Notes: generated by a model not told the origin, from the letters alone. 64,000 nucleotides of DNA from Flavobacteriales bacterium (GCA_016704485.1 JADJAA010000001.1:1554824-1618823); one strand, 5' to 3'. Shown: positions 5,740-24,302, numbered from the stretch's first letter. Made by a program: numbers and translations.

Positions 5740-6642
5740 TCATCGTGTTCTCCGGAGCCGAGAAGGCTCTTCAGACGTTGGCTCTTCGCCCCCGCGCAGA
5801 CCGTGCGCATCGCGCTCATCCAGAGTCCATTTGGGTTTGGCGGTCTTCAATCGCTTTTCCACTTTCTTAATGTGTTCGGCAGGTGGAATGTTCTCCGGTA
5901 GTGTGCCACCAATACGACGGATGGCATCACGCACCTCCTTGCCTACTGACTCGTGTGTGCGTATTGCCTGCTGATCCCCATGCACACCTTCCCGGGCCAA
6001 TTTGTCACGGGTCTGCGTCATGCGGAATTGGTTCGCAGCGAGTTCGGTTGCGTTCATGCGGTCCAGCAATTGCTCTTTGCCAGGGATGCCCTTGCGCTGT
6101 TTGATCTGTGCGTTACCAATACCTCCGTAGAGCCCTTTGTAACCAGCATCGTGGAATACACCGAACATGCGCCCGTTCACCCCAGCCTGTTGTGCAGCAC
6201 CGCTCAATGCTTTGAATTCTTCGGCTGTTTGCTTGCGAATTTGCAGCCGTTCTTTGTCTGCGGCCAATTGGTCATTCACTTCTTGGCGTCTCGCTTGCAC
6301 AACAAAATACTGCTGCGCTAAGGCGATCTCCGGCTTGCGAGGGTCGCCGTTGATGGCGATTAGATAGCAGGCGAATCGGGAGAGGTGGAAATCGGCCAAC
6401 TGGCGCTCACTGCCCGATCCAAGAGGGACCATTTTGCCGGCGCCGGCAAAATGGTCGGTCGGCTCATTCCCTGACTCTCTACACGCATCTTGTGCCCGTT
6501 TGATGGCCTGTTCAAATCGCCGCCATTGGTCATAACCTAACAACGGTTGCAGCGCTCTGGCACTCCAGAACTCGGCACCATGTGAATTGACCTGCTTCAG
6601 TTCTTCGAAGCTGGGCGGGGTAGGGTTCGGTAACTCACTCAT
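5740..6642 (-). CDS. dinD: DNA damage-inducible protein D homolog
   Basis: 300 aa. It is collinear with E. coli DinD: FWSARALQPLLGYDQWRRFEQAIKRAQDACRESG..., LSRFACYLIAINGDPRKPEIALAQQYF, GLYGGIGNAQIKQRKG, ELAANQFRMTQT. Confidence 0.75.
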   Translation of the reverse strand: MSELPNPTPPSFEELKQVNSHGAEFWSARALQPLLGYDQWRRFEQAIKRAQDACRESGNEPTDHFAGAGKMVPLGSGSERQLADFHLSRFACYLIAINGDPRKPEIALAQQYFVVQARRQEVNDQLAADKERLQIRKQTAEEFKALSGAAQQAGVNGRMFGVFHDAGYKGLYGGIGNAQIKQRKGIPGKEQLLDRMNATELAANQFRMTQTRDKLAREGVHGDQQAIRTHESVGKEVRDAIRRIGGTLPENIPPAEHIKKVEKRLKTAKPKWTLDERDAHGLRGGEEPTSEEPSRLRRTR

Positions 6643-6849: not shown

Positions 6850-9003
6850 TTGAACGATCTTCGACCCGAACTAGCGCCCAATGTTACTAGCGCCCCACAA
6901 ACCCATGGATCCTGTCCTATGCGCACCTTAGAGGAAGATGCCTTGCGCTTGTTGCGGAGTTCGGTAGGGGATACCAAGGCCACCTTCAGGGAAGGTCAAC
7001 TGGAAGCCATCGTCGCCCTGGTCCGTGAGCGAAAGCGCTTGCTGGTGGTGCAATGTACCGGCTGGGGCAAGAGCAATGTGTATTTCATCAGTGCGAAGTT
7101 GCTGCGCGAAAAAGGGCATGGACCCACCGTTATCGTTAGTCCGCTATTGGCTTTGATGCGCAACCAATTGCAGGCCGCAGCGCGCATGGAGCTGAAGGCT
7201 ATCACCATCAACAGTGCCAACACGGATGAATGGGAGACGCTGCAAGAGCAGGTGGTATCCGGTGAAGCCGATGTGCTCCTGATCAGTCCGGAACGACTGG
7301 CCAACGAACGTTTTATCGCCGAGGTGCTGTTGCCCATCGCTGGACGCATCGGCATGCTCGTGGTGGACGAAGCGCATTGCATCAGCGATTGGGGGCACGA
7401 TTTCCGGCCCGACTATCGGCGCATCATCGCGATCCTGAAACAACTGCCTGCCAACCTACCGGTACTGGGTACAACCGCCACTGCCAACCAACGCGTGGTG
7501 GACGATCTGAAGGTGCAACTTGGCGACCTCACCATACAACGTGGGACCTTAGTGCGTGACAGTTTGATGCTCGATGCTGTGCAACTCCCCGACCAAGCCG
7601 CACGCCTCGCTTGGCGGACGCACTACCTGCCCCTGCTCCCCGGATCCGGTATCGTGTACACCCTTACCGTGCGCGATGCGGAGCGCGTTGCCGAATGGTT
7701 GCAACAGAACGGGATCGAAGCAAGGGCCTACCATGCCTCCGTCGTTGATACCGAAGATGGCGATCTGCGCGAGCGCTTGGAGCAGCAACTGCTCGATGGA
7801 AGCATCAAGGCCTTAGTTGCCACCACGGCACTCGGCATGGGCTACGACAAGCCCGACCTGGGTTTCGTGATCCACTTCCAAGCTCCCGGCTCCATCATCG
7901 GCTACTACCAACAAGTGGGGCGCGCCGGAAGGGCGATCGAGAAGGCCTACGGGATACTCCTACATGGCGAAGAAGATGCTGAGATCCATGCCTACTTTCA
8001 AGAGAACGCTTTCCCGAACGAGTCGAATGTGCTGCAGATACTGAAGACTTTAGAAGGTGGCAACGGTCTTTCCATCCGGCAACTGGAGCCGACCATGAAC
8101 CTGCGCTACGGGCAGTTGGAACAGGCCTTGAAATTCCTGAGCATGGAGGACCCTGCGCCGGTGGTGTTGCAGGACCATCTGTGGAAGCGCACACCGGTGG
8201 CCTACACCTTGGACCATGCGCACATCCAGCGCCTCATGGAACTACGAGAGCGCGAACGTGAGCAAGTTGTGGCCTACGTGCAACACACTGGCTGCCGCAT
8301 GGAATTCCTTCAACAGGCCTTGGATGATGTCGTGCATGCACCCTGTGGACATTGCGCCAATTGCTTGGACAAGCACTTCAAGGCGGACATGCCCCCAGCG
8401 GAAGTGGCCCGCGCGGCTACCTTTCTGCGCAGCGCGGAGATGGTACTCACCTGTCCGAAGGCACTACCCGCAGGTGGCTTGGATGCGCTCGACATTAAGG
8501 GCAACATACCGCTGGAGTTGCGCCCGCAGCCCGGAAGGATCCTCTGCCGTTGGGGCGACTCCGGTTGGGGCAAGTTGGTGGCGCAACAGAAGCACGACGG
8601 ACACTTCAAAGACGAACTCGTCCACGCCCTTGCCGAAATGGTGAACGAGCGCTGGTGTCCGGATCCGCCCCCAATGTGGGTGACCTGTGTGCCCTCCCTT
8701 CGCCATCCGGAATTGGTTCCCGATCTTGCACGCCGATTGGCCGCCAAGTTGGAACTTCCGTTCCACAACGTGGTGGAAAAGACCCGCCAGAACGAGGCGC
8801 AGAAAGCCATGCAGAACCGCTACCACCAGTGCCATAACCTCGATGGCGCCTTCGCCATCGGTACGGTGCCCGAAGGGCCTGTGCTATTGGTGGACGATGT
8901 GGTGGATTCCGGCTGGACCATTGCCATTCTTTCGGCACAACTGCTACAGGCCGGTTGTACCTTGGTGTACCCTATCGCACTAGCAAGCACCTCCCATACC
9001 TGA
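6850..9003 (+). CDS. RecQ-family SF2 DNA helicase fused to a C-terminal ComFC-like phosphoribosyltransferase (PRTase) domain
   Basis: 717 aa. RecQ motifs present are VVQCTGWGKSNVYFI (motif I), LLISPERL, LVVDEAHCISDWGHDFRPDYRR (DEAH box), and the helicase C region ...YYQQVGRAGR. The C-terminal 130 aa carry the PRTase signature VLLVDDVVDSGWTI. Stop TGA at 9001..9003 overlaps the next start (TGATG). Confidence 0.8.
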   Translation: MNDLRPELAPNVTSAPQTHGSCPMRTLEEDALRLLRSSVGDTKATFREGQLEAIVALVRERKRLLVVQCTGWGKSNVYFISAKLLREKGHGPTVIVSPLLALMRNQLQAAARMELKAITINSANTDEWETLQEQVVSGEADVLLISPERLANERFIAEVLLPIAGRIGMLVVDEAHCISDWGHDFRPDYRRIIAILKQLPANLPVLGTTATANQRVVDDLKVQLGDLTIQRGTLVRDSLMLDAVQLPDQAARLAWRTHYLPLLPGSGIVYTLTVRDAERVAEWLQQNGIEARAYHASVVDTEDGDLRERLEQQLLDGSIKALVATTALGMGYDKPDLGFVIHFQAPGSIIGYYQQVGRAGRAIEKAYGILLHGEEDAEIHAYFQENAFPNESNVLQILKTLEGGNGLSIRQLEPTMNLRYGQLEQALKFLSMEDPAPVVLQDHLWKRTPVAYTLDHAHIQRLMELREREREQVVAYVQHTGCRMEFLQQALDDVVHAPCGHCANCLDKHFKADMPPAEVARAATFLRSAEMVLTCPKALPAGGLDALDIKGNIPLELRPQPGRILCRWGDSGWGKLVAQQKHDGHFKDELVHALAEMVNERWCPDPPPMWVTCVPSLRHPELVPDLARRLAAKLELPFHNVVEKTRQNEAQKAMQNRYHQCHNLDGAFAIGTVPEGPVLLVDDVVDSGWTIAILSAQLLQAGCTLVYPIALASTSHT

Positions 9004-10223
9004 TGGACCTAAGACCGGACGACCAAGCCACCTTGCTGCTTACCGCGCACCTGCCCGGAGGCAACGCCGTGCAGCCGCTCTCCACCGGCGAATGGTCACG
9101 GTTCAGTGCGTGGTTGCTTGCACATGAGCACACACCGGGCGACCTGTTCATTGGCGATCCGAAGCACACGCTGGCCACCTTTCAGGACAAGACCATCACC
9201 CTGGAGCGTATCGCACCGTTGCTGGATCGCGGTTTCCAAGTTGCCTTGTTGCTGGAGAAGTGGCAACGTGCAGGGCTCTGGGTGATCACGCGCTCCTCGC
9301 CGGATTATCCGCAACGGCTCACCACCATGCTCGGCGACCAAGCGCCGCCCTTGTTCCATGGTGCAGGCGACCGCCGCAAGCTGGAGACCAAGGCACTTGC
9401 TGTGATCGGATCGCGCAACGCCGCCGAGGCCGATCTGCACTTCGCCCGCCAACTGGGCCACGCCGCCGCACAACAGGGCTGGTCCATCGTAAGCGGTGGT
9501 GCGCGCGGTGTGGACGAAGCCTCCATGCGCGGTGCCATCGAAGCCAGTGGTACCGTGATCGGGGTGGTGGCCGATAGCCTGCTGAAGATGGCCACCAGTC
9601 ACAAGTACCGCGATGCCATCCAACGCAGTGACATCGTCCTGCTCTGTGCCTCGCACCCCGAAGTGGGTTTCTCCGGGGCCAATGCCATGGCGCGCAACAA
9701 GTATGTGTACTGCCTAAGCCGTGCGGCCGTGGTGGTGTGCTCCGATGCCAACAAGGGAGGTACCTGGGCCGGCGCCACTGAGGACCTGAAGAAGAAGTGG
9801 GTGCCCGTGTGGGTGAAGCACCATCCCGATCCACGCAGCGGCAACCGCGCACTGGTGGATCGTGGCGCACAGCCTTTGCCCGATTCCGATCCGCATGCCT
9901 TGGACATGGAGGACCTCGCCAAGGGTAAACTCTCCAGCGCTCAACTCTTCGAACTGCCCATTGCCTCCGACGTTGCCGCCGTATACCAAGCCTCCGGAAC
10001 CACGGCCCCGAAAGAGCTCACCGAAGCGGATGAGATGGAAGCCATCCTCAAGGCACTTGCCACTCCCATGACCGTGAAGGCCCTTGCCAAACATATCGCC
10101 ATGGACGAGGCCCGCATCAGCCACCTGCTGGACCAATTGGTACACCTGCACAAAGTGGAACCACCAACTGGCCGATCACGCAGCTACGCCCTAGCGGGTC
10201 CGGATCTTTTTAGTGGGGAGTGA
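9003..10223 (+). CDS. dprA-like: DprA/Smf-family DNA-processing protein (SLOG/Rossmann-like fold + C-terminal winged helix)
   Basis: The DprA core is LAVIGSRNAAEADLHFARQLGHAAAQQGWSIVSGGARGVDEASMRGAIEASGTVIGVVADSL...NAMARNKYVYCLS. Start ATG 9003 overlaps the upstream stop, which suggests translational coupling. Confidence 0.8.
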   Translation: MDLRPDDQATLLLTAHLPGGNAVQPLSTGEWSRFSAWLLAHEHTPGDLFIGDPKHTLATFQDKTITLERIAPLLDRGFQVALLLEKWQRAGLWVITRSSPDYPQRLTTMLGDQAPPLFHGAGDRRKLETKALAVIGSRNAAEADLHFARQLGHAAAQQGWSIVSGGARGVDEASMRGAIEASGTVIGVVADSLLKMATSHKYRDAIQRSDIVLLCASHPEVGFSGANAMARNKYVYCLSRAAVVVCSDANKGGTWAGATEDLKKKWVPVWVKHHPDPRSGNRALVDRGAQPLPDSDPHALDMEDLAKGKLSSAQLFELPIASDVAAVYQASGTTAPKELTEADEMEAILKALATPMTVKALAKHIAMDEARISHLLDQLVHLHKVEPPTGRSRSYALAGPDLFSGE

Positions 10224-10663
10224 GTCGTGTCGCTCAGTACAGCTGGATCATGCTCTTCCCGGTTGAATTGGTAGTACGGTGTTTCTGGCATCGTGGCGTT
10301 CGTTCAAGTATGAACTTGCCGTATCTCGAATGATCGTTCCGGCCACGCGGCCTTTGATAGTGTTCTTTGAGAAAGTTAGCTAAGAGCTCTACTGCGTCGT
10401 TTTTCTATTGGTAGTGTTCAGCTCTCACCCCGCCATCAATAGTCATTATGTTCCAAGATCACCTCCGGCGATAGATCCCATACCATGCTCCCCACGTGGT
10501 AACTGAACCATGCGTTAAAGACTTTCCAGCTCCGGTCCACAGGCCAAGTATCCTCATCCGGGCAAGTGCCGAACAGTTCCATCTCGAAAATGAACGGAGC
10601 ATACGGCTTCACCACATCGGCAATGTCCTTCACGGTATTTGATGTTGACCAGCCTTTACCCTG

Positions 10664-13600
10664 TCAACCCAACGTGAACTGCACGCGAGGCAATACCACT
10701 TCATAGCTCTTATCCTTCTCCTTATCGTACCAATGCACAATGTATTCTGCCGTAGCGCCTGAAACACGATATCCCTCATTTGCGAAACGGGGTAGTGTCG
10801 AGTCAATGAACTTGCGCGCGTAGAGCAGCACATTGCCGTTCCCGGTGCCAAGACCAAGTGCACTTCCGTTCGTGAATTGTTTCTCATCCGGCACCATATT
10901 GGAGCCCGCAGAAAGGGATGTGATCCGGTCGGAGTTATATGAACACGATCCCAGGTTCACCTCCTTCATACCAAGCACGTATTCAAGTTTATTGGGCCGA
11001 GGGTATACCACCTCATTCGTTTCTCTGATCAACGAGGCATGTTTGTAGGTGGGAAGGAACTGATCATTCGTGTGGATCACTAATTGGTCCATTGATCTTG
11101 TGCAGGCCACATAGAGTAGGCGGAGGTCTTTGTCCTCCTCCATCGGGTAGTTCTTCTGGTATACGAACACGTTATTGAACTCCTTGCCCTTGCTCTTGTG
11201 CATGGTAGATACATGCACCACTCCTTTCTGTGGTTTCACGGCGTCGCTGATCCTGATCTCACGCACGAAAGCATCCCATTCTGATAGGTCATGTCGCCCT
11301 TGGTTCCCTTTCTTGAAGAGCGCAAGTAGGTCTTTCATGTCCGCCCGCAATGGATTCCCCTTGAGCCCTTCTATATATTCCTTAACGGCATTGTCCCAGA
11401 CCTCCTTGGGAATAACACCAATTCCTGGATGGCGTTCACGAACGAATTGGCCGAACGCTCGGACCTCGCGCAAGCGACCTACGGGGAAGTCATCCGAGCC
11501 ACCGATGTAGCGCGCCTTGACGCCATGTTGCTCCAGCATGGCCGTTGCCATGATCGCCTCATTGTTCGTGCGGGTCAATACACTTGTCGTGCCGGTGAGC
11601 GTCGACCGTGCGACGTCCTTTACCAGTCCTGTCAAATGATAGCCGCCGGAATATCGGACCACACGTTGCACTCCCGGCCGATCGTCATTTGCTACAAGTT
11701 CCTCACCATCTTTTATCCGGACTTTGATCTTGGAGGCAATATGATTCGTCAATCGAACGATCGTCTCCTTGCTCCGGTAATTCACAAGTAGGCTATGCGA
11801 TCGCGCCTTGAAGCGGGTTCGGAATTCCGACATGAATCTTGGCGATGCACCGCGCCATTCATAGATGTTCTGGTCGTCATCACCCACTGCGATGATGCGT
11901 GGTTTCTCTGCGGTCTCAGCAAGCATCTGGATCAGTTGCCATTGCTCCTGATCAACATCTTGGAATTCATCCAATACGATCACGCTTTTGTTCGCAATGG
12001 AGGTGACATCCACTTCGCCGGCATGGATAGCCGCCATGGTGCGGCTGATCACAGTTTCCGACCGGTCCAGATCGCCGAGCTGACCCATCAGTTCAAAACA
12101 CAAGCCATGGAATGTCGTGATCCGGATAAGGCCTCGATACTCCGGAACCATGGCATGGACGCGGTCGCGGAACTCCATTGCCGCAGCCTTCGAGAACGTG
12201 AGCATAAGGAATTGCTCAGGCTTCACATCCTCAATGAGCAGAAGGCTCGCCACCTTATGGACAAGGACCCGGGTCTTACCGCTCCCCGGACCCGCAGCAA
12301 CAAGGATCTGGTCCGTACTATCATTGACCACTCCCAATTGCTTCGTATCCAGATCCCCGAAAAGCTCAGTGAATCTGCTTCGGGTGATAGGCCGTGTGAT
12401 ATCGGTGCTGCGCTTCGGAAAGTATTTCTGCACGAAGACATCGTGCTCGAAGCGGAAATAGTCATCTACGAAAGATAACGCGGCCTGAACGCTTTCCATA
12501 CGGCGTGCTGCATACTCTCCCACCATATGGATCTGTTCCACCCTGTTCTGGTAATGATGCCTCAGGTTACCGTAATCCTCTTGGGTGTATTGCTTCCGTA
12601 CGTTCTGCTCCACGCGCTCCACATTCATCCGTTGGTACATGACCATGAACCCGTCCTGCAGGCTCAGTACATTCATGCCGTGTAGGAACAGCAATGCATC
12701 GGCAATGGCTTTCAGGTCATGCTCTTTGCCGAACATCCCTTCGGCCATTGCCGCTCTCAGCCCCAACAAGGAGAATTTCACACGCAATTCCTGCTTGGCA
12801 TCGTCAGCGAGCTTCGACGTATCGGGTACTAGTTTCTCAAGTTGTTCGAAACAAGCCAAGGCAAGTGCTTGGCGCGCTTCCACCTCCTTCCGTAGTTCTT
12901 CCGGGTCCTTCAATAGTGTTATCCTGTAGCTATCTGCTTGCCGGTCCAGGCGCTTGATCCCTACCAGTCTTCGTTTCTTCCAGATCAGGAACAGTGGCTT
13001 CAGATCCTCTATCCTGCTGTCCACCCCCTGGTCAAGAATGCCTTGGTTCAGCGCGCGATAGGTCACGGTCATTTCCTGTTCGGCCAGGAGCCCTACCAAT
13101 GCCTTTTCGGTATTCAGGATGCGTTGCAACCGTGCTTTGGAACCCGCACGTGGTCGACCATCCACATAGGCGGTCAGGTCCTGCTCATCGTTCAAGACCG
13201 CGATGTTCCGCAACAGTTGTACGGTCTCGATCACATCACGCAACTTCATTCCGAGATGACCCGCGACCACATCGACTTGCGATACACCCACTCCATCCTC
13301 ATCCGGTTTCACTAGTCGCTGCAATACCCGTATGCAATTCTCCTTCTGTTTTTCTGTTAATCCGGTATTGTCCCGTACTATCCGTAAGGCATCCTCCAGT
13401 CCTTTGACCATTAGACCGGTAGCGAAAACCTGCGGGGAGTTCAGCGTGCGCTTTATGTAGCCTCGGTCCTCTAGGGCTGCAAGGGATGCGGCCACGCGGT
13501 TCTGGATATCACGCATCTCTTCATCCCATCCCGCGGCTTTGGCAAGCTCCGAAGCCGAACGACTGATCTTGTCCCGGATCTTGGTCATGCCTTTTACCGC

Positions 13601-15496
13601 ACGCCATACCTGCTGTATCTCCTTTTGATTGAGCTTGGTCCGTTGAAGCAAGTGGAAATGGCCGCCCAGGTCATTCTCATTGTATAGGATGTAGCACTTG
13701 GCATCAATGTCTTTGTTGCGGCCAGCGCGACCGGCTTCCTGTACGTAGCTCTCCAGCGAACTGGAGATGTTGTAGTGGATGACGGATCGCACATCCTCCT
13801 TGTCCACACCCATACCGAAAGCCGAGGTTGCCACCATGACATCCACCTCACCATCCATGAAGCTCTCCTGATTGAGCTGCTTCTCTTCGCGCTCCATCTT
13901 GCCATGAAATCCGCGGACCGATATCCCGATCGCCTTGATGCGATCTACAAGCTCATCAACGCGTTTGGTCCGGCTTGCATACACGATCGCGGGTTTCTCA
14001 CAGGTGTTCAGCAGGCCCAATAACACACGTTGACGGGCTTCGGCAGTGGTGTCCTCCACAGGAAGGACCTCGTACTCCAGGTTCTCCCGCCGCGCTTGGC
14101 TTATATAGGGAATAAGGTCCAGACCAAGGCCATTCTTGAAATAGTTCCGGATGTCTTCCACCACTTGCGGCTTGGCGGTGGCAGTAAAACAGGATACGGG
14201 TATGGGCTTCTCGCGCCCAAGGTCGATCTGAAGCTGTTTCAGATAGGGCGCGATGTACAAGTAGTCCACCCTGAAATCATGCCCCCAACTGGAAAAGCAA
14301 TGGGCCTCATCTATAACGAACCGCGAGATCTGTCTCTTCTGCAGCAGACGGGAAAGCGTGGGAGAACGAAGCGTTTCCGGAGCGATATACAACAGGTGGA
14401 TCCCGCCATCCTCTACTTGCTTCAGGACTTCTTGCCGCTCCAATGGGGAAAGTAGTCCGCTCAGATGGGCCGCACGCACTATCTGGTGCCGATGTTCCAG
14501 CACCTCCACCTGATCTTTCATCAGCGAAACCAACGGCGAGATGACCACGGTGAGCGAACGGGTAAGCGCACCTTCCATTAGAGCAGGCAGCTGGAACGTG
14601 AGCGACTTGCCTCCGCCAGTGGGGAAGACGGTCAGGACCGACTCTCCGGCCAACGCTGAACCGACGGCCTTTTCCTGCACTCCAGCCTGGCTTTCACCGT
14701 CGAACAATCGGAAGTGATCATACCCGAAATACTCCTTCAGTCCGCGCTTTGCATCCATCCAGGTCGCACAGTACTCGCAGCCCGCATCATTACACTGTGC
14801 GAACCGCAGGTTATGCAGTACCTGTTGGGTAAAAGGCAAGCTATGTACGACCCAAGGGGGTAGGATGGATGCTTCATCGGTCGTGTCGATCAGGGCCAGC
14901 GCATGCGCGAGCTCTACAGGTCTATCAGTAGTAAAGCGTTGCAGCGGAGCAGAAGCGCAAATGAGGCCTGAGTAACGCGAGGTGATCAAGTCGGCTACGT
15001 CTGTCTTGTCCTGCTCATGTGCCGCAAGCTCGATCATGCCATCGTACCCTTCCTGTCCGGAAAGCAAACCGGCATAGACCGAACGCATGACAACAGGCAA
15101 ACAATTGAATGTACCTAAAAGTTCTTCCAATAGTTCGCGACACAGTTTTGCGTCACTGAGCGGATCGTTGTCGCCGTCCTCGTTGCGGATCTTGTAGCCC
15201 TTCACCAACTTGTGATAGGGCTTATTGGCGTACAGCAATGCACTCCAACACAAAGTATCCAAGAGCACCTTACCCTTTAATACATTCTGCCCCATGTGCT
15301 TCCGAAGCACAGGCGCATCATGGCCAACAAGGTTGTGCCCGGCGACAATGGTTGCCCTGTCTATCAGCTTCTTAAGTCCATCCAGCTTACGCTTGTGGAA
15401 TTCGCTGCTCCCGAGCACAGCTCCTACGTCCAGGAGTTTTTTACTCCGCTGATCTAACTCGAGATCCAGAATGAGGACCTTGTCCAGTGCGTTCAT
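10664..15496 (-). CDS. 1610-aa multidomain protein: N-terminal DEDD (DnaQ-like) 3'-5' exonuclease + RecQ (SF2) helicase + C-terminal UvrD/PcrA (SF1) helicase
   Basis: Exonuclease motifs: ILDLELD and VAGHNLVGHDAPVL. RecQ motifs: FGYDHFRLFDGESQ, VFPTGGGKSLTFQLPAL, VIDEAHCFSSWGHDFRVDY, and helicase C ending YVQEAGRAGR. UvrD motifs: VAAGPGSGKTRVL (I), LTFSKAAAMEFRDRV (Ia), LDEFQDVD (II), GDDDQNIYEWRGA (III), VNYRS (IV), VSTMHKSKGKEFNNVF (V), LLYVACTRSMDQLVI (VI). Confidence 0.8.
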   Translation of the reverse strand: MNALDKVLILDLELDQRSKKLLDVGAVLGSSEFHKRKLDGLKKLIDRATIVAGHNLVGHDAPVLRKHMGQNVLKGKVLLDTLCWSALLYANKPYHKLVKGYKIRNEDGDNDPLSDAKLCRELLEELLGTFNCLPVVMRSVYAGLLSGQEGYDGMIELAAHEQDKTDVADLITSRYSGLICASAPLQRFTTDRPVELAHALALIDTTDEASILPPWVVHSLPFTQQVLHNLRFAQCNDAGCEYCATWMDAKRGLKEYFGYDHFRLFDGESQAGVQEKAVGSALAGESVLTVFPTGGGKSLTFQLPALMEGALTRSLTVVISPLVSLMKDQVEVLEHRHQIVRAAHLSGLLSPLERQEVLKQVEDGGIHLLYIAPETLRSPTLSRLLQKRQISRFVIDEAHCFSSWGHDFRVDYLYIAPYLKQLQIDLGREKPIPVSCFTATAKPQVVEDIRNYFKNGLGLDLIPYISQARRENLEYEVLPVEDTTAEARQRVLLGLLNTCEKPAIVYASRTKRVDELVDRIKAIGISVRGFHGKMEREEKQLNQESFMDGEVDVMVATSAFGMGVDKEDVRSVIHYNISSSLESYVQEAGRAGRNKDIDAKCYILYNENDLGGHFHLLQRTKLNQKEIQQVWRAVKGMTKIRDKISRSASELAKAAGWDEEMRDIQNRVAASLAALEDRGYIKRTLNSPQVFATGLMVKGLEDALRIVRDNTGLTEKQKENCIRVLQRLVKPDEDGVGVSQVDVVAGHLGMKLRDVIETVQLLRNIAVLNDEQDLTAYVDGRPRAGSKARLQRILNTEKALVGLLAEQEMTVTYRALNQGILDQGVDSRIEDLKPLFLIWKKRRLVGIKRLDRQADSYRITLLKDPEELRKEVEARQALALACFEQLEKLVPDTSKLADDAKQELRVKFSLLGLRAAMAEGMFGKEHDLKAIADALLFLHGMNVLSLQDGFMVMYQRMNVERVEQNVRKQYTQEDYGNLRHHYQNRVEQIHMVGEYAARRMESVQAALSFVDDYFRFEHDVFVQKYFPKRSTDITRPITRSRFTELFGDLDTKQLGVVNDSTDQILVAAGPGSGKTRVLVHKVASLLLIEDVKPEQFLMLTFSKAAAMEFRDRVHAMVPEYRGLIRITTFHGLCFELMGQLGDLDRSETVISRTMAAIHAGEVDVTSIANKSVIVLDEFQDVDQEQWQLIQMLAETAEKPRIIAVGDDDQNIYEWRGASPRFMSEFRTRFKARSHSLLVNYRSKETIVRLTNHIASKIKVRIKDGEELVANDDRPGVQRVVRYSGGYHLTGLVKDVARSTLTGTTSVLTRTNNEAIMATAMLEQHGVKARYIGGSDDFPVGRLREVRAFGQFVRERHPGIGVIPKEVWDNAVKEYIEGLKGNPLRADMKDLLALFKKGNQGRHDLSEWDAFVREIRISDAVKPQKGVVHVSTMHKSKGKEFNNVFVYQKNYPMEEDKDLRLLYVACTRSMDQLVIHTNDQFLPTYKHASLIRETNEVVYPRPNKLEYVLGMKEVNLGSCSYNSDRITSLSAGSNMVPDEKQFTNGSALGLGTGNGNVLLYARKFIDSTLPRFANEGYRVSGATAEYIVHWYDKEKDKSYEVVLPRVQFTLG

Positions 15497-15719: not shown

Positions 15720-17534
15720 TTACAAGCCTTCGTAATAGCCCTTGATCTTTTGTGCCATCAGGTGTTTGCGTTCCTCCAAAAAGGTCTGGTAGCTTTTTAC
15801 ATCATAGTCGAAGATAGCTGTTGGGATGCAGTTCTCGCGCATGTTCTTGCGCAGGTCGGCCATGTTACGCAGACCACCGATGTCACCTTTGCCTTGCTCA
15901 AGCTTGTCCGCAACGGTCGTAAAGTATACCGCTGGCGTTTTGTCACCGATCTTGATGTTTCCGGGTTGGTCCATGTACACCAGATTGCTCACGCGATTGT
16001 ACAGACTGCGACCCAAGCCATTCTTCTTCAACAAGCTGCGGGGGAAGATGTGGTGTACATCTCCGCGTGTAAGCAACATGTCGTTCACGGTGAGGTGCCG
16101 ACTGAACAGACCATGGTCGTTCGCGTTGGCTTGGGCAGCTAGGAATACGCCGAAGAACGGACTGCTCATCACTGGGCTTTCCAAATGCCCTGGAAGTACA
16201 GAATTCCAGAACGCATCACTCAGGTCACCTGCTTCGATCTCGGCTAAGTAGTCGGAAGCATTGCGTTCGTTCAGCCGTTTGATGTCAAAGTCGAATTGGC
16301 TTTCGAAGCTGCCCGTTGCACGTTCGGTCAAGATGCTCATAACGTACCAACGGCGCACCAAGCTTTGTAATTCATTGCCTCGGTCCATTCCTTGACGACG
16401 CAAATGCAGGTACAAGAAATAGGCGAAGTTGATCGCGTTCTTACTGCGCATCAACTTGCTGCGCACGAAGCCTGCCGACCGAAGGATCAACGTGAAGAAC
16501 TTGAAGTCAGTCTCATTCATGAAGCGGGCCACACCAGCGTCCAACTGCTTGAAAGAATTTTCCATAATGGTCTCCTCGAACGTGCGGTTCACGAAATCGC
16601 GTCCACTAAGTAGGCTGACCAGGTCGCTCATTTTACCACGACCGAATTCCACACCGCTGGCAACACGCAACATATCCGTGTAGGCCGGGTCATAGAGATC
16701 TTCGGTTTCGCTGCGTAGCCACTTCATGTTCTTGAAGTGCTCCGTGGCTGCGAACTCGGGGTCGTTCTCCTTGATGTGCTCGTAGTACTGCGGCTCTTTG
16801 CTCAGGTGGCAGAAGTAATCGATGGCCTTGCGCAGAACCGGACCACCATGGTGCTCGTTGCTGGCGATCTTGCTCATGGCAAAGTCCGCTTGGCTCAATA
16901 CGACTCCTTTGCTGTTGATGCGGATGAAGATCTCCGTTACCGTCTCTATGTCCAGTTCGTGGTTCAGTTCGATCACGCCGATCTGCCGCTTGGCTAAATT
17001 GGCCAATTGCCCAAGGCTGCTCTCCACAAGCTCGGCATCTGCATCCGGGTTTGCTGCGGTGTATGCTTTGTTCAATTTGATCAAGCTGAAACCACTCCCA
17101 AAGAACACCGCGATATCCGGCAACCACGCCTTGTCCTTTTGGATGATGGGCGTTTGCACCTCGAACTTCTGGGTGATGGGATGGAACGCGATCTTGATCT
17201 TGATCCGCGCATAATCCTTGTCCACCACGTATTCATCCATTAAAGCAGCACGCAATGCTGTTATGCGTTGTTGCCCATCGATCAAGATCTTCTTGCCGCT
17301 GCCAATGCTGCCATCTTTCAAGCGCACATCCGGGTTCTTCCATGTAATAATGTAGCCCACTGGAAAACCTTGGTAGATGCTATCCATCAGATCGCGGACT
17401 TTGCTCTTATCCCAAACGAATGGGCGCTGGATCTCGGGTATCGCGATCTCTTTCTCTTTCACCCACGACAATAAACTTTCGATAAGCGGCTGTTGGATAC
17501 TGTATTTCTGTGTTTGCATGATCGTGTTGAACAA
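15720..17534 (-). CDS. GmrSD/BrxU-like type IV (modification-dependent) restriction endonuclease, DUF262 (ParB-like NTPase) + DUF1524 (HNH-like)
   Basis: 604 aa. The N-terminus IPEIQRPFVWDKSKVRDLMDSIYQGFPVGYII...IDGQQRITAL is the DUF262 DGQQR motif. The C-terminus ...GDVHHIFPRSLLKKNG is the DUF1524 His-Me finger. Confidence 0.75.
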   Translation of the reverse strand: MFNTIMQTQKYSIQQPLIESLLSWVKEKEIAIPEIQRPFVWDKSKVRDLMDSIYQGFPVGYIITWKNPDVRLKDGSIGSGKKILIDGQQRITALRAALMDEYVVDKDYARIKIKIAFHPITQKFEVQTPIIQKDKAWLPDIAVFFGSGFSLIKLNKAYTAANPDADAELVESSLGQLANLAKRQIGVIELNHELDIETVTEIFIRINSKGVVLSQADFAMSKIASNEHHGGPVLRKAIDYFCHLSKEPQYYEHIKENDPEFAATEHFKNMKWLRSETEDLYDPAYTDMLRVASGVEFGRGKMSDLVSLLSGRDFVNRTFEETIMENSFKQLDAGVARFMNETDFKFFTLILRSAGFVRSKLMRSKNAINFAYFLYLHLRRQGMDRGNELQSLVRRWYVMSILTERATGSFESQFDFDIKRLNERNASDYLAEIEAGDLSDAFWNSVLPGHLESPVMSSPFFGVFLAAQANANDHGLFSRHLTVNDMLLTRGDVHHIFPRSLLKKNGLGRSLYNRVSNLVYMDQPGNIKIGDKTPAVYFTTVADKLEQGKGDIGGLRNMADLRKNMRENCIPTAIFDYDVKSYQTFLEERKHLMAQKIKGYYEGL

Positions 17535-17620: not shown

Positions 17621-20600
17621 TCAAGCACTGCGCTCACCCGGCTGTGCGTTCCCTTGCACCCACTCCACTACCGAGATGATCTTATCCTGATCATTCTCAT
17701 TCGGGAATAGGCCGAAGATCCCTTCTTGGTGTAGGTCCGTGAACGTTGAACCCGGCTCTGCGAGCATGCGTTTGTCGATCACGCCGTTCACCGTGAGGTG
17801 CCGAATGATGGAATCGATGAAGTGGATCTGCGTAGCACTGAAGATGGAGCCGGACAAGAATTCGCCGAAGGCTGCTTTTGCTGCGCCTTCATCAAGGCCG
17901 ATGATGCTGCGAATGAAATAGCCTAGTGGCCGTTCCTCGCCAAGTTCCTTCATCAAAGCCTCCTTCGTGCCGCGTTCGTCTCCATCGAACAGGATGCGTT
18001 CCAGTTCCACTAGCTCAGCGGTCGTGATCGGCTCATTGGTGTATAGTTTGTGAATGGTAAGCTGGTGTTTGTGCGAGCGGATGAACTCCTCTACACGCAT
18101 CCGATAGCTACGCATGGTGTAGCTACCTGGCATGGAGATGATATCCTCACCCTCGCTCACCAACTCATCTCTCAGGTCCGAGTATACCACTTTGCGTTCC
18201 TCGCGCGGTATCAAGCGCACTAGATCGCGCAATTGTTTTCGTGTGAATTCCAAGGCTTCCAGACCGAACACAGCGGCTCGTTGTTGTTGATCATTTGCGA
18301 CATCAAGAACTGCTTTGATCGCTGGATACCGCTCCTGCACTACGGGAATGTTGGAGAGCCGGGCAAGCTGTGTGGCGGTTGAGGCCAACGTGCGGAACAG
18401 GCGATCTACTGACGGCGCCTCTTGGGCCACAGCAATTTCCAGATCGAGCATAAGTAGGTCAAATCGTTTGGCCAGCTCGTCCTTGTCCGGTAGTTCGATC
18501 AAGTGACCAACGGTCTCGAACAGATCACTGATCCCGCTTTTTGATAACGCATTCCATGCGGTACGTTCACGGTAGTGATCGAGCACACGTTGCGCAGGAC
18601 GAATGCGCACGGTGTGCCGCAATTCCCAAAGTGCCTGGACCCAACTATGCGCACTATTCAAAAGCTCAACGCGTAGTGCTTGATCTTTTGGTACCTGATG
18701 GGCTGGTTCACGCAGTTGTTCACTAAGTAGGATAGTTGCTTCAAAGATCCGTTGCGATAGGCTGGGGGAGCGCACAGGTTCAATGCCTTCCGGCCGCAGG
18801 TTGAAGAAGCTGTAGTTGCCACAGAGATCGAAGATCCTGAAGTTCTCCTTGTGCTGGCCGGGACCGAACAGATCCGGGCATAAGCGTGTGCCGCGGCCAA
18901 CCATTTGCCAGAACTTGGACTTGCTATAGACCGGTTTAAAGAACACCAAGTTCACGATCTCAGGAATATCAATACCCGTATCCAACATATCCACACTCAC
19001 GGCGATCTGTGGATACCGGTCCTTATCACTGAAATTATCTATGATGCTCTGGGAGTATTGCTCCTTACTGTGTACCACCGACATGAAATGCCCACCGTAC
19101 TGCGGGAACTGATCTTCAAAACGGTTCTGTATGGCCCGGGCATGGTCTATGTTCCTTGCAAAGACAACGGTCTTGCCCAGCTTCTCACCACCTTCCACTT
19201 TGATCCCGTTCTCCATCACATAGGCCAACACCTGATCGATGGTGTTCGAGTTGAAGAGCCAGTTATTGATCGCGGGCGCTCCGATCTCTTCGGGTATATT
19301 CCCTTGGTCGTCCCGGAAGGTCTCTTCGTAATGTGTCCTATCGCTCTCACTCAGGTCATCGTAGCGGATACCGCGTTGCAGAAAGCCGAAGTCCACTGCT
19401 TTGCCAATGGGCGGCACCAGAAAACGATCGGCTACGGCCTGCCCTAATTCATAGAACGATGTCGGGTTATGCTCTTCGCAATCGAACAAGGCATAGGTAT
19501 CCCGATCCCCTTGGTCGTGTGGTGTTGCAGTAAGGCCGACCAACAAGGAATCGAAATAGGTGAAAATAGCACCGTACCGATCGTACACTGAGCGATGCGC
19601 CTCATCCACAATGATCAGATCGAAGTGACCGACACCGAAGGTCTTCACATCATCACTCCGCACTTGGTCCACGCGGTTCATTACCGTGGGGTAGGTGCTG
19701 AAGACCACCCGTGCGCTTTCATCATAGCGCTGTTTGGTGAGATCCAATGTGGTAACATTCGGCAGGTTCTTCTCAAAGGCCCGTTTTGCCTGTGTGACCA
19801 AGGCATTGCGATCAGCGAGAAAGAGCACACGCTTCGCCCAATTCGCTTTCAGTAGAAGGTCCACTAACGCGGCAACGGTACGCGTCTTGCCAGCCCCAGT
19901 GGCCATTACGATCAATGCTTTTCGCTTAAGACCGCGCATGCCATCTTCATCCACCCAACTTTCTGCAACCCGCTTGATCGCTTGATGTTGGTAATAGCGT
20001 TCCACGATCTGCTCATCGATCGGCACATGCCGAATGTTCACACGACCGATACGCCGATCAACGACCCGTTGCAATTCGTCCCGCGTGTAAATGCCCTGTA
20101 CAGCGCGTGGACCATAAAAGGTGTCATCCCAGATCCACGTATCGAAACCGTTGCTATAGAATATCACCGGGCGCTGTCCGGTCATGCGTTCCAGGCAATC
20201 AGCGTAAAGGCTTGCTTGCACACGGCCTTGTTGGGCATCGTGGGTGGTGCGCTTGGCCTCTACTACGGCCAGCGGTTTACCATCTGCACCCCAGAGCACG
20301 TAATCTACCTTGCCGTTGCCGTTGGGATTGGTGCTCAATGGCATCCCTGTTACCGGGTATTCGATCACGTTGGATGCGGCAGGGTCCCAGCCTGCTTCGC
20401 GCAACAGTTCATCAATGAAGAGTAACCGTGTATCCGCCTCCGAATATTCAGAAGCAGGTATGGGTATGTTCTCATGGCGCTCCTTGCGCTCCTGGATCGC
20501 TGCCAGGCGTTCTGCCAATATCTGCTTTTCTCCTTCTAATTTCAACCGTTGCTCGCGCTCGGTCTCCATCGCTACACGTTGCGCTTCATAACGCTCCTGT

Positions 20601-21079
20601 AACTGTTGAAGCTCCGCGCTGTTCGGAACTTCCTTCACTTTCACTTGTACTATGAGTGCCTCCTCTTGGAATGTTCCTACCTCGATGTCGAATGCGCTGT
20701 ACGTACGACCCATCCATTTCAAGAACCGGAACAAGAGGCGCAATGAGGCTACGCTCTGGCTCTCCACCACCTTCTTATCATGCGCAGCGGCATTGCCGGT
20801 ACGCCGGATGTACTGCAGGTCGATGTAGATGGGTGGTGGTATCAGTACCCGGAAGGACCGTTCATCCATCAACGCGCTCAACTGGCTGTTGTAAGGGCGC
20901 TGTAGGTCACTGTCGTTATCATACAGCCAGTGCACGGTACGTTCCAACGCACGGCGGGCATACACGGCAGAGGCGATCGGTGCGGCCAAGGCATACCGCT
21001 CCGCGTCCATGGCCTCCTTCGCAATGGAGGGCCACTCTTCAACGAGGAAGCGGAAGTTGCTCGGGGTGCTCAACGACAT
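17621..21079 (-). CDS. hsdR: Type I restriction enzyme R subunit (EcoEI/COG4096-like, with EcoEI_R_C C-terminal domain)
   Basis: 1152 aa. The N-terminus is SNFRFLVEEWPSIAKEA. The PD-(D/E)XK nuclease motif is GKVDYVLWGADGKPLAVVEAKRT. The SF2 helicase motifs are VMATGAGKTRT and LIIVDEAHRS. A long C-terminal helical domain is present. Confidence 0.8.
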   Translation of the reverse strand: MSLSTPSNFRFLVEEWPSIAKEAMDAERYALAAPIASAVYARRALERTVHWLYDNDSDLQRPYNSQLSALMDERSFRVLIPPPIYIDLQYIRRTGNAAAHDKKVVESQSVASLRLLFRFLKWMGRTYSAFDIEVGTFQEEALIVQVKVKEVPNSAELQQLQERYEAQRVAMETEREQRLKLEGEKQILAERLAAIQERKERHENIPIPASEYSEADTRLLFIDELLREAGWDPAASNVIEYPVTGMPLSTNPNGNGKVDYVLWGADGKPLAVVEAKRTTHDAQQGRVQASLYADCLERMTGQRPVIFYSNGFDTWIWDDTFYGPRAVQGIYTRDELQRVVDRRIGRVNIRHVPIDEQIVERYYQHQAIKRVAESWVDEDGMRGLKRKALIVMATGAGKTRTVAALVDLLLKANWAKRVLFLADRNALVTQAKRAFEKNLPNVTTLDLTKQRYDESARVVFSTYPTVMNRVDQVRSDDVKTFGVGHFDLIIVDEAHRSVYDRYGAIFTYFDSLLVGLTATPHDQGDRDTYALFDCEEHNPTSFYELGQAVADRFLVPPIGKAVDFGFLQRGIRYDDLSESDRTHYEETFRDDQGNIPEEIGAPAINNWLFNSNTIDQVLAYVMENGIKVEGGEKLGKTVVFARNIDHARAIQNRFEDQFPQYGGHFMSVVHSKEQYSQSIIDNFSDKDRYPQIAVSVDMLDTGIDIPEIVNLVFFKPVYSKSKFWQMVGRGTRLCPDLFGPGQHKENFRIFDLCGNYSFFNLRPEGIEPVRSPSLSQRIFEATILLSEQLREPAHQVPKDQALRVELLNSAHSWVQALWELRHTVRIRPAQRVLDHYRERTAWNALSKSGISDLFETVGHLIELPDKDELAKRFDLLMLDLEIAVAQEAPSVDRLFRTLASTATQLARLSNIPVVQERYPAIKAVLDVANDQQQRAAVFGLEALEFTRKQLRDLVRLIPREERKVVYSDLRDELVSEGEDIISMPGSYTMRSYRMRVEEFIRSHKHQLTIHKLYTNEPITTAELVELERILFDGDERGTKEALMKELGEERPLGYFIRSIIGLDEGAAKAAFGEFLSGSIFSATQIHFIDSIIRHLTVNGVIDKRMLAEPGSTFTDLHQEGIFGLFPNENDQDKIISVVEWVQGNAQPGERSA

Positions 21080-21301
21080 GGAGGCGCAATTGACGATATT
21101 CTAAGCACTTGTACAATTACAAGATGCGAATAAGTCGAGCCTATGATGTGCGGCTTGTGATGGTAACTGCCGCGTGTGGCCCTTTACGGCTCTAAAATAC
21201 ATGTGGATACTTCAGAACCGGTCTTCTTGCTGCTAAGAGAATGCTAATTCCTCTGAAGCACTACATTGCGGACATGTGCACCCACACACGCCTGCTATTA
21301 G

Positions 21302-22063
21302 TTGCGATCGCCATTTTTGGTCGTAGGGCTATGCACGGCGCAACAAGATGGACCAACCGAGGAGGAGCAGCCAACAATTATCACGGCGGAACAACTGCAG
21401 GACTTTAATTCGGTAGTGCCCGGCATGGGTCGACAGATCCCGGGAATATACTTGTCCAACTACGGGCTTCTGTGTTACCACTTTGGGGATGATGGCACAT
21501 TCGCATCGCGCGACTTGAATGATTCCGGTTGGGTCGCAGCCGGTTCATGGTATGCGCCCATCACGTTGCCAAAGGAACAATTGGACACTGCGCAAGCCCT
21601 GTGGGTGCGGTACCATCTTCTCTGCGACAGTTCCCTGCGCGGTAGCCCATTGACACTAAGTTTGGGATCCATTGCCGGTATTGAGATCTTTTTGAACGGC
21701 CATCGGTTGGTGCACGTCCGGGAATTGCCGCCGGTTGTTCATGATCTTGATCAACCAATTTGGGACACGCTGCGGCGCTTTACCCTACCGATCACATTCG
21801 CGTGCCAAGGCGAACCAGAAGTGCTCGCTATTCGGATAGATCCGGCAAGGAATGGAATTCCCTACCCCACTTTGCACTATACGAACTTCGCCTACAACGT
21901 ACAGCTGTCCGCGATGCACTATGGTGTCTTCATCGGGGTCAACGCCATCATCTTTTGCTCGCCTTGGTCCTCTGGTCTTTGGACCGGAATGATAAGCAGT
22001 GGTGGCTACTGGCCCTGCTGGCCTTCGTTACAGGATCAGGGTATGCGCCAAGTTGACCAGTGA
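21302..22063 (+). CDS. 7TMR-DISM extracellular (DISMED2-like) sensor domain; probably the N-terminal part of a single frameshifted gene with 21999..23375
   Basis: 253-aa ORF ending in a first TM-like segment HYGVFIGVNAIIF. The downstream ORF, in another frame, supplies 6 further TM helices. That gives 7 in total, as in 7TMR-DISM receptors. Confidence 0.5.
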   Translation: MRSPFLVVGLCTAQQDGPTEEEQPTIITAEQLQDFNSVVPGMGRQIPGIYLSNYGLLCYHFGDDGTFASRDLNDSGWVAAGSWYAPITLPKEQLDTAQALWVRYHLLCDSSLRGSPLTLSLGSIAGIEIFLNGHRLVHVRELPPVVHDLDQPIWDTLRRFTLPITFACQGEPEVLAIRIDPARNGIPYPTLHYTNFAYNVQLSAMHYGVFIGVNAIIFCSPWSSGLWTGMISSGGYWPCWPSLQDQGMRQVDQ

Positions 22064-23375: not shown

Positions 23376-23382
23376 CCATTTC

Positions 23383-23470: not shown

Positions 23471-23476
23471 TGCTGT

Positions 23477-24274: not shown

Positions 24275-24302
24275 TATGTCCGTGCTGCGTGATCCTCTTC
24301 CG

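What the first reader, a model, noticed from the sequence alone, without database searches (positions are those of the whole stretch)
10664..15496. Single 1610-aa polypeptide combining DEDD exonuclease, RecQ (SF2) and UvrD (SF1) helicase domains
All seven UvrD motifs and the RecQ DEAH and helicase-C motifs are intact, behind an N-terminal DnaQ-like domain whose exo III region appears to lack the usual His/Tyr. Two helicases of different superfamilies, and presumably opposite polarity, fused with an exonuclease is a rare architecture. It is reminiscent of a bacterial WRN-like exonuclease-helicase with an extra motor. Its position between a DprA/RecQ-PRT pair and a type IV restriction enzyme argues for a role in processing incoming DNA rather than housekeeping repair.
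Basis: partly seen in the sequence, partly recalled or inferred. Interest (0 to 1): 0.7.

Follow-up and report, generated by a model that had tools for sequence, protein, structure and literature searches.

The report
Exonuclease fused to two DNA helicases
This is a real, conserved and uncharacterised 1610-residue enzyme that joins a DNA-trimming nuclease to two different DNA-unwinding motors; it moves between bacteria on plasmids and genomic islands, often beside restriction systems, so it is a plausible but untested anti-invader or DNA-end-processing machine.

Summary
The ORF at 10664-15496 (minus strand) is intact. It has well over 100 full-length relatives (1593-1628 aa, 44-77% identity), so the fusion is not an assembly artefact.

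Five modules were found:
- An N-terminal DnaQ-like DEDD exonuclease fold. The four acidic residues are conserved, but the canonical His/Tyr is missing.
- A RecQ-family SF2 core.
- A roughly 400-aa linker with no detectable relatives.
- A UvrD-type SF1A core.
- A small beta-rich C-terminal domain with weak HIRAN-like structural similarity.

All ATPase motifs are invariant, and this holds even in relatives at about 30% identity on proteobacterial plasmids.

The family is patchy, not syntenic, and has no conserved partner gene. It is almost absent from phages. Restriction-modification (R-M) or McrBC genes lie within 10 kb in at least 28% of loci. Six of 11 fully annotated loci are defence or integrative islands, and five sit among housekeeping genes.

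Its "opposite polarity" inference does not, because RecQ and UvrD-type motors both move 3'-5'. A defence role is plausible but unproven; accessory repair is a serious rival. No paper on this architecture was found.

The parts
10664..15496 (-). Whole gene: 1610-aa exonuclease-RecQ-linker-UvrD-tail polypeptide (stop codon at 10664-10666)
   Evidence: ORF list and translation. More than 120 full-length homologues of 1593-1628 aa at 44-77% identity. Relatives at 29-38% identity over the full length lie on Bacteroides, Aliarcobacter, Allochromatium and Cereibacter plasmids.
15101..15496 (-). Residues 1-132: DnaQ-like DEDD 3'-5' exonuclease core. Exo I is D11/E13, Exo II is N55/H59/D60, Exo III is D115. 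The canonical His/Tyr is absent. There is an invariant loop P93-Y94-H95-K-L-V-K99-G-Y101.
14711..15100 (-). Residues 133-262: helical subdomain with invariant Cys cluster C180, C235-x4-C240-x2-C243. A metal site is inferred here, not shown.
   Evidence: The AF2 model is helical over residues 112-257. 212 residues aligned with S. aureus DinG. The cysteines are invariant in Bacteroidota, Allochromatium and Cereibacter members but lost in Aliarcobacter.
13577..14710 (-). Residues 263-640: RecQ-family SF2 helicase core (two RecA-like lobes), without a detectable Zn-binding, RQC or HRDC module
   Evidence: Pfam DEAD 1.4e-29 and Helicase_C 1.6e-22. TIGR00614 scores 283.8 bits, above the 219.8 cut-off; the RecQ equivalog scores 312.8, below its 640 cut-off. 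PADLOC DpdF and PsyrT models cover residues 247-651 only. Motifs are invariant.
12359..13576 (-). Residues 641-1046: conserved linker of unknown fold (61% mean column identity, many invariant residues)
   Evidence: No Pfam hit. No PDB profile hit. No PHROG hit. No similarity to the PsyrT C-terminal part. No internal repeats by hhalign. Conservation.
11057..12358 (-). Residues 1047-1480: UvrD/Rep/PcrA-type SF1A helicase core
   Evidence: Pfam UvrD-helicase 1.3e-40, AAA_19 and UvrD_C 6.1e-17. NCBIfam UvrD, PcrA and Rep partial matches. PADLOC GajB models match at domain level. All motifs from Q to VI are invariant.
10667..11056 (-). Residues 1481-1610: small beta-rich C-terminal domain with invariant Y1576, Y1585, W1589 and P1603; weak HIRAN-like similarity (tentative)

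Best explanation
The gene encodes a stand-alone, horizontally mobile exonuclease-dual-helicase that needs no dedicated partner gene. It belongs to the accessory genome (defence islands, integrative or conjugative elements, megaplasmids). It most likely acts in conflicts with foreign DNA.

Proposed mechanism (inferred, not shown):
- The enzyme engages DNA with a free or recessed 3' end, such as a linear end, a gap, a rolling-circle intermediate or a fork. The C-terminal beta domain may help recognise that end.
- The two ATP-driven 3'-5' motors (UvrD-type SF1A and RecQ-type SF2) unwind the duplex.
- The N-terminal DEDD domain degrades the released 3'-ended strand.

Shown: the architecture, the folds of the two terminal domains, the integrity and conservation of all catalytic motifs, the absence of a conserved partner, and the mobile, R-M-associated distribution.

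Inferred: the polarity of each activity (from the characterised families), the substrate, the cooperation between modules, and the biological role.
For: - Real and fused.
- Domain identities.
- All exonuclease acidic residues and all ATPase motifs of both motors are kept down to 29% identity across phyla. All three activities are therefore under selection together.
- The N-terminal domain is found almost only in proteins of 1580-1780 aa.
- No conserved neighbour: 460 neighbouring genes fall into 398 clusters, and the largest cluster (HsdM) occurs in 6 of 69 loci.
- The recurrent neighbours are type I R-M subunits, McrBC, Dcm, type IV secretion coupling protein and DUF5712.
- R-M or McrBC genes lie within 10 kb in 19 of 69 loci, and in 16 of 50 loci with full flanks. 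This is a seed-limited lower bound.
- Six of 11 Pfam-annotated loci are defence or integrative islands. The window has PsyrTA, GmrSD_N and type I R-M. L001 has MmeI, McrBC and DarTG. L003 and L006 have type I R-M, AbiEii and RT. L095 has a Schlafen-type helicase and HsdS. L096 has AAA_21, an RNase_H_2-helicase and an integrase.
- Plasmid copies occur in at least 28 records.
- The family is essentially absent from phages: 0 full-length matches in 50,697 phage records, and 1 match in 2.9 million viral contigs.
- Distribution is patchy: 215 matches in 185,579 species genomes.
- In Flavicella marina a second, 97%-identical copy shares homology only across the coding sequence.
Against: - No experiment exists, and no PADLOC model covers the whole protein.
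- Five of 11 annotated loci (L004, L008, L009, L097, L098) sit alone among housekeeping genes.
- The measured R-M adjacency (28-32%) is below what is usual for validated defence families, although my detection was incomplete.
- The exonuclease lacks the canonical general base, so it could be weak or inactive.
- The 400-aa linker is unexplained.
- Some plasmid copies lie next to par/rep or ssb genes. This fits a maintenance function as well as a defence function.
- The genome scan was pattern-limited and misses Bacteroides-type relatives (RPYHKLVK), so true prevalence is unknown.
Confidence: 0.45

Rival explanations
1. It is an accessory DNA-repair or fork-rescue enzyme. On this view it is a bacterial analogue of WRN (exonuclease plus RecQ) combined with UvrD-like protein-clearing or unwinding activity and an HLTF-like 3'-end grip. 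It would process stalled or reversed forks, gaps or G4/secondary structures for the host, and would be acquired sporadically by horizontal transfer.
For: - The exonuclease-plus-RecQ order mirrors WRN, and the top structural hit is firmicute DinG, a replication-stress exonuclease-helicase (PMC3270479, PMC12345164, PMC12525004).
- Five of 11 annotated loci lie among housekeeping genes.
- L097 lies about 7 kb from a Y-family polymerase gene.
- All enzymatic motifs are conserved.
Against: - Distribution is patchy with no synteny.
- The gene is enriched next to R-M and McrBC systems and in conjugative elements.
- No conserved upstream operator such as an SOS box was found in 67 upstream regions.
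- RQC and HRDC modules typical of repair RecQ helicases are absent.
Confidence: 0.3
2. It is a function that benefits the mobile element carrying it: replication, establishment or stabilisation of plasmids and conjugative elements. Examples would be unwinding and trimming of transferred or rolling-circle ssDNA, or protection against host nucleases or defences.
For: - In Aliarcobacter pACIB the gene is directly beside parA/parB and near rep and a T4SS coupling protein.
- In the B. finegoldii plasmid it borders a block with two ssb genes and parA/parG.
- In five Flagellimonas or Galbibacter loci it sits with a T4SS coupling protein and DUF5712.
- At least 28 plasmid records carry the family.
Against: - Most chromosomal loci show no mobile-element genes within 10 kb.
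- Many carrying plasmids are large non-mobilizable chromid-like replicons, where cargo genes of any function accumulate.
- Defence genes are themselves common cargo of such elements, so this context does not discriminate.
Confidence: 0.12
3. It is a self-contained toxic, abortive-infection-type RecQ-like helicase related to PsyrT/RqlH. The extra modules would keep it inactive until infection.
For: - The RecQ core matches the PADLOC PsyrT model (240.6 bits, residues 272-637) and DpdF models.
- A genuine PsyrTA pair lies next door in the window.
Against: - The match is confined to the generic RecQ core.
- The protein lacks the PRTase-like tail of PsyrT, and its linker shows no similarity to the PsyrT C-terminal part.
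- There is no conserved antitoxin-like neighbour.
Confidence: 0.05
4. It is an assembly or annotation artefact: two or three adjacent genes read as one.
For: Two relatives (L010, L053) are split into two ORFs.
Against: - 75 of 89 independent loci carry one intact ORF of about 1600 aa, from isolates as well as MAGs.
- RefSeq annotates the same single gene on complete plasmids.
- The two split cases come from records whose contig names suggest long-read assemblies. They could be frameshift errors or pseudogenes; this was not checked.
Confidence: 0.01

Closest known systems
WRN (Werner syndrome protein) and other exonuclease-RecQ fusions
   Different: - WRN is DEDDy; here the Tyr/His position is not conserved.
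- No RQC or HRDC was detected here.
- This protein adds a 400-aa unknown linker, a complete SF1A UvrD-type motor and a C-terminal beta domain.
- It is a mobile bacterial accessory gene.
Firmicute DinG (S. aureus and B. subtilis DinG: DEDD exonuclease fused to an XPD-like SF2 helicase)
   Different: - The helicase partner in DinG is XPD/DinG-type (5'-3'), not RecQ.
- DinG has no second motor.
- DinG is a conserved chromosomal gene of bacilli, not a patchy island or plasmid gene.
UvrD-type and RecQ-type helicases of defence systems (Gabija GajB, DRT-associated helicase, PsyrT/RqlH, DpdF)
   Same: The best PADLOC matches are DpdF (327 bits), PsyrT (241 bits) and GajB (165 bits). The gene shares their defence-island context.
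   Different: - The matches cover single domains only.
- Those helicases work with dedicated partners (GajA, PsyrA, the Dpd operon). This gene has no conserved partner and carries its own nuclease.
RecBCD / AddAB / AdnAB two-motor helicase-nucleases
   Same: They also combine two ATP-driven motors with nuclease activity to process DNA ends, and they have a known role in destroying linear foreign DNA.
   Different: - Those are multi-subunit SF1-only machines with PD-(D/E)xK nucleases. RecBCD has motors of opposite polarity.
- Here one chain carries one SF2 and one SF1A motor (both expected to be 3'-5') and a DEDD nuclease.
HLTF / Rad5 (HIRAN domain plus motor)
   Different: - The similarity is weak and unsupported by Foldseek, Pfam or hhalign.
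- The motor in HLTF/Rad5 is SNF2-type, and its HIRAN domain is N-terminal.

Membership tests
DnaQ-like DEDD 3'-5' exonuclease superfamily | RNase H-like alpha/beta fold of the exonuclease core | tested here: met
DnaQ-like DEDD 3'-5' exonuclease superfamily | Four acidic metal ligands (Exo I DxE, Exo II D, Exo III D) | tested here: met
   D11, E13 and D60 are invariant, and D115 is at least 90% conserved, in 43 sequences. They are also present in relatives at 29-38% identity.
DnaQ-like DEDD 3'-5' exonuclease superfamily | Fifth residue, His (Hx4D) or Tyr (Yx3D), in Exo III | tested here: not met
   The corresponding positions are N110 and D111/N111. The invariant Y94/H95/Y101 in the preceding loop might substitute; this is an inference.
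DnaQ-like DEDD 3'-5' exonuclease superfamily | Curated sequence model (Pfam RNase_T / DNA_pol_A_exo1 etc.) above threshold | tested here: not met
   RNase_T E 0.28, 12 bits against a cut-off of 24. One of 15 relatives reaches E 0.1. The PDB sequence profile search is negative.
DnaQ-like DEDD 3'-5' exonuclease superfamily | Mg-dependent 3'-5' exonuclease activity | not testable with these tools
   Needs biochemistry.
RecQ family (SF2) helicases | Helicase motifs 0, I, Ia, II (DEAH), III-VI, and the curated family model | tested here: met
   TIGR00614 scores 283.8 bits, above the 219.8 cut-off. Motifs are invariant.
RecQ family (SF2) helicases | RecQ C-terminal modules: Zn-binding subdomain, RQC winged helix, HRDC | tested here: not met
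   No RecQ_Zn_bind, RQC or HRDC hit in Pfam at E<=1. The linker has no PDB profile match. The RecQ equivalog score of 312.8 is far below its 640.2 cut-off. A divergent fold cannot be excluded without a structure.
UvrD/Rep/PcrA (SF1A) helicases | Q motif and motifs I-VI; UvrD-helicase and UvrD_C domains | tested here: met
   Pfam 140.3 and 62.5 bits, above the cut-offs. Motifs are invariant. It is not an orthologue of UvrD, PcrA or Rep: 132-139 bits against cut-offs above 900.
HIRAN domain | HIRAN fold and sequence signature (Pfam PF08797) | tested here: inconclusive
Known anti-phage defence systems (PADLOC-DB 2.0.0) | Full-length match to a system protein, and presence of the system's partner genes | tested here: not met
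   Only domain-level hits were found (DpdF, PsyrT, GajB, C3a193). No conserved neighbour.
Known anti-phage defence systems (generic criterion) | Consistent co-localisation with known defence genes | tested here: inconclusive
   R-M or McrBC lies within 10 kb in 19 of 69 loci, a lower bound. Six of 11 annotated loci are islands. No background control could be run.
RecBCD/AddAB-type bipolar helicase-nuclease | Two motors of opposite polarity plus a PD-(D/E)xK nuclease | tested here: not met
   The motors are RecQ-type and UvrD-type. Both families are 3'-5' by established knowledge. The nuclease has a DEDD fold.

The most novel reading that the evidence does not exclude
The family is a new class of single-protein immune or anti-mobile-element system. 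It would be one polypeptide that recognises 3' DNA ends or replication intermediates of invaders through a HIRAN-like reader, drives two same-polarity motors of different superfamilies, and destroys the DNA with a non-canonical DEDD exonuclease. It would be spread by horizontal transfer across at least four phyla.
Probability: 0.3. Interest if true: 0.75.

Novelty: new variant of a known kind. Interest (0 to 1): 0.55.

Why it matters
Helicase-nuclease machines are central to both DNA repair and bacterial immunity. All characterised examples use either one motor, or two motors on separate subunits.

This protein places an SF2 RecQ motor and an SF1A UvrD motor, both expected to run 3'-5', in one chain with a 3'-5' exonuclease. 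That combination has been kept intact from Bacteroidota to Proteobacteria. It therefore poses a clear mechanistic question: why are two same-polarity motors needed?

It is also a tractable single-gene candidate for a defence or plasmid-conflict function. Public annotation calls it only 'RecQ family helicase', and I found no paper on it.

Tried and rejected
1. Sequence-only identification of the N-terminal domain failed with Pfam on the query and on 15 members, and with a PDB sequence profile. Structure and PHROGs were needed.
2. Linker 598-1047: Pfam, PDB profile, PHROGs, hhalign against the PsyrT C-terminal part and hhalign self-comparison of six segments were all negative. My guess of repeated winged-helix units is unsupported and has been dropped.
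3. HIRAN assignment of the tail: Foldseek/PDB, Pfam and hhalign against HLTF HIRAN were negative. The afdb50 library was unavailable. The assignment is kept only as a tentative lead.
4. A conserved partner gene is rejected.
5. A conserved upstream operator or SOS box: a k-mer and palindrome scan of 67 upstream regions found nothing beyond AT-rich promoter-like words.
6. The sigma-70 promoter and terminator scan around the gene gave no more than shuffled controls.
7. No tRNA or Rfam element in the window marks an integration site.
8. Literature searches for RecQ-UvrD fusions, protein accessions and B. fragilis RecQ paralogues found no description of this architecture.
9. A phage origin is rejected.
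10. The RecBCD-like bipolar model is rejected on family polarity.

Full report
**Observation**

The window contains one uninterrupted ORF at 10664..15496 on the minus strand, ATG to stop, 1610 codons. Its translation aligns end to end with more than 120 database proteins of 1593-1628 aa at 44-77% identity. Where they are named at all, they are all called 'RecQ family ATP-dependent DNA helicase'. Of 89 fetched loci, 75 hold an intact ORF of about 1600 aa. The fusion is therefore genuine and not an assembly artefact.

**Anatomy: helicase cores**

Pfam places DEAD and Helicase_C at residues 273-594, and UvrD-helicase, AAA_19 and UvrD_C at 1050-1477.
- The RecQ-family subfamily model TIGR00614 is passed (283.8 bits against 219.8). 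The RecQ, UvrD, PcrA and Rep orthologue models are missed by a wide margin.
- No RecQ_Zn_bind, RQC or HRDC is detected.

**Anatomy: N-terminal domain**

The N-terminal 262 residues give nothing significant with Pfam or a PDB sequence profile.
- An AlphaFold model built on 15 homologues (pLDDT 84.7) has the beta-beta-beta-alpha-beta-alpha-beta-alpha core of the DnaQ-like exonucleases.
- PHROGs adds a sequence-level match to phage polymerase exonuclease subunits (E 4.8e-05).

**Anatomy: conserved residues**

In a 43-sequence alignment:
- D11 and E13 (Exo I) and N55, H59 and D60 (Exo II) are invariant. D115 (Exo III) is at least 90% conserved.
- The usual Hx4D or Yx3D residue is absent, with N110 and D111/N111 in its place.
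- An invariant loop P93-Y94-H95-K-L-V-K99-G-Y101 and an invariant cysteine set (C180, C235, C240, C243) are family signatures whose roles I can only guess at.
- All RecQ motifs and all UvrD motifs are invariant.

**Anatomy: C-terminal domain and linker**

The 400-residue linker (641-1046) is well conserved. It matched nothing and shows no internal repeats.

**Family and distribution**

- A profile of the N-terminal domain finds 1437 clusters (50% identity) at E<=1e-3 among 1.84 billion representatives. Almost all complete hits are 1580-1780 aa, so this domain exists essentially only in this architecture.
- A pattern-limited scan of one genome per species found 215 loci in 185,579 genomes. Nearly all are Bacteroidota (Flavobacteriales, Saprospiraceae, Cytophagales, Bacteroidales) and Ignavibacteriota, with a few stray MAGs of other phyla. 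This scan misses Bacteroides-type relatives, whose motif is RPYHKLVK, so prevalence is a lower bound.
- Full-length relatives at 29-38% identity lie on plasmids of Bacteroides, Phocaeicola, Aliarcobacter, Allochromatium and Cereibacter. Matches covering 78-90% of the query, or the N-terminal domain, lie on plasmids of Thiothrix, Sulfitobacter, Rhizobium, Paracoccus and Croceicoccus, with partial matches in cyanobacteria. The four relatives that I aligned keep every catalytic motif.
- There is no full-length match among 50,697 phage records, and one match among 2.9 million viral contigs.

**Neighbourhoods**

- Four genes on each side in 69 non-redundant loci give 460 proteins in 398 clusters. 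The most frequent cluster, HsdM, is present in six loci. There is no conserved partner and no synteny.
- Recurrent neighbours are type I R-M subunits, McrBC, a C5 methylase, a type IV secretion coupling protein and DUF5712, beside ordinary ABC-F and TonB-receptor genes.
- With a limited seed set, R-M or McrBC genes lie within 10 kb in 19 of 69 loci (16 of 50 with full flanks). Conjugative-element genes are present in five loci.
- Among 11 loci with full Pfam annotation, six are defence or integrative islands and five are solitary insertions among housekeeping genes.
- In the window itself the gene sits in a long mosaic island. This holds a DinD-like gene, PsyrT/PsyrA, the fusion gene, a GmrSD_N protein, type I HsdR/HsdS/HsdM, a methylase-HATPase protein, a radical-SAM protein, a WYL regulator and an AAA_21/SMC-like ATPase.
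- In Flavicella marina a second copy 41 kb away is 97% identical. The homology begins inside codon 12 and ends 4 bp after the stop. The duplicated unit is thus the coding sequence alone, and this copy has lost the Exo I motif.

**Interpretation**

The three enzymatic modules are conserved together across phyla and never need a neighbour. The protein is therefore best seen as a self-sufficient nuclease-helicase.
- By established knowledge of the families, DEDD nucleases digest 3'-5', and both RecQ-family and UvrD/Rep/PcrA helicases translocate 3'-5'.
- Everything in the protein points at 3' ends. I therefore propose a 3'-end-directed unwinding-and-resection machine. All steps of this mechanism are inferred.
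- The biological role is uncertain. The patchy, non-syntenic distribution, the plasmid-, island- and ICE-borne copies, the enrichment beside R-M systems and the near absence from phages favour a conflict or defence function (confidence 0.45).
- The WRN-, DinG- and HLTF-like parts, and the many loci among housekeeping genes, keep accessory repair or fork processing alive (0.3).
- The par/rep/ssb neighbours on some plasmids allow an element-maintenance role (0.12).

**Comparison and novelty**

The closest known systems are:
- WRN (exonuclease plus RecQ);
- firmicute DinG (DEDD exonuclease plus SF2 helicase; PMC3270479, PMC12345164, PMC12525004);
- defence helicases of the GajB, PsyrT and DpdF types, which match at domain level only;
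- RecBCD/AddAB.

The protein is a member of the DEDD fold superfamily (with a non-canonical Exo III), of the RecQ family (core only) and of the UvrD-type SF1A family. It is not a member of any described defence system.

Five literature searches found no description of this architecture. I rate it a new variant of a known kind. It is of moderate-to-good interest (0.55) as a single-gene candidate with a clear mechanistic puzzle.

Noticed in passing
window 6850-10223 (+): A complete PsyrTA (RqlHI-type) pair. PsyrT is a RecQ-like helicase with a PRTase/ComF-like tail (PADLOC 952 bits). PsyrA is DprA/SLOG-like (415 bits). The segment has GC of about 61%, against 52-56% in the flanks, which suggests separate acquisition.
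   Followed up: partly
window 15720-17534 (-): A 604-aa protein with a GmrSD_N (DUF262) domain and PADLOC HEC-05 matches. No C-terminal DUF1524/HNH domain was detected. It is on the same strand as the fusion gene, 223 bp upstream of it, but it is not a conserved neighbour elsewhere.
   Followed up: partly
window 17621-27004: The type I R-M system is split. HsdR (17621-21079, -) is separated from HsdS (24303-25448, -) and HsdM (25445-27004, -) by an oppositely oriented pair, an unknown 253-aa ORF and a 458-aa adenylate/guanylate-cyclase-domain protein (21999-23375, +), and by an unknown 324-aa ORF.
   Followed up: no
window 27018-33354 (-): A run of same-strand genes: an unknown 423-aa protein, an 898-aa N6_Mtase-plus-HATPase_c protein, a radical-SAM protein and a WYL-WCX regulator. 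This may be another, unclassified defence module.
   Followed up: no
window 34000-42000: A low-GC stretch (44-48% against 52-56% elsewhere). It carries a 795-aa AAA_21/SMC-like ATPase (36435-38822), a weak HNH-like ORF (35458-36426) and a 604-aa protein with a partial Amidohydro_2 match (38824-40638). It looks like a separately acquired island segment.
   Followed up: no
window 5740-6642 (-) and 1820-3292 (-): A DinD-like protein (NCBIfam 364 bits; PADLOC PDC-S13; Bro-N domain), and a DUF2779 protein with a weak Cas4-like match. They lie at the left edge of the island, next to a T9SS-secreted protein.
   Followed up: no
L047 9995-14818 and L048 about 9988-14776 (Flavicella marina, same contig, 41 kb apart): Two copies of the fusion gene are 97% identical. 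DNA homology is confined to the coding sequence. The second copy starts after a stop codon at the equivalent of residue 15, so it lacks the Exo I DxE motif.
   Followed up: yes
L010 9989-14828; L053 9992-14835: The closest N-terminal relatives include two genes that are split into two ORFs (734+870 aa and 636+947 aa). The contig names suggest long-read assemblies. Whether these are frameshift errors or pseudogenes is undecided.
   Followed up: partly
L096 5272-8628: The island neighbour of one homologue is another exonuclease-helicase fusion: an RNase_H_2 (PolB-exonuclease-like) domain plus an AAA_11/AAA_12 SF1B-type helicase, 1118 aa. It lies next to an AAA_21 protein and a tyrosine integrase.
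   Followed up: no
L091 9001-13800 (Aliarcobacter cibarius pACIB): This relative has lost the Cys cluster that is invariant elsewhere. It lies directly beside parA/parB, near rep and a T4SS coupling protein.
   Followed up: partly
L031, L080, L083, L086: Family members at 34-41% N-terminal identity occur on contigs binned as Halioglobus, Riflebacteria, Acholeplasma and Erysipelotrichaceae MAGs. This is either horizontal transfer out of Bacteroidota or binning contamination.
   Followed up: no
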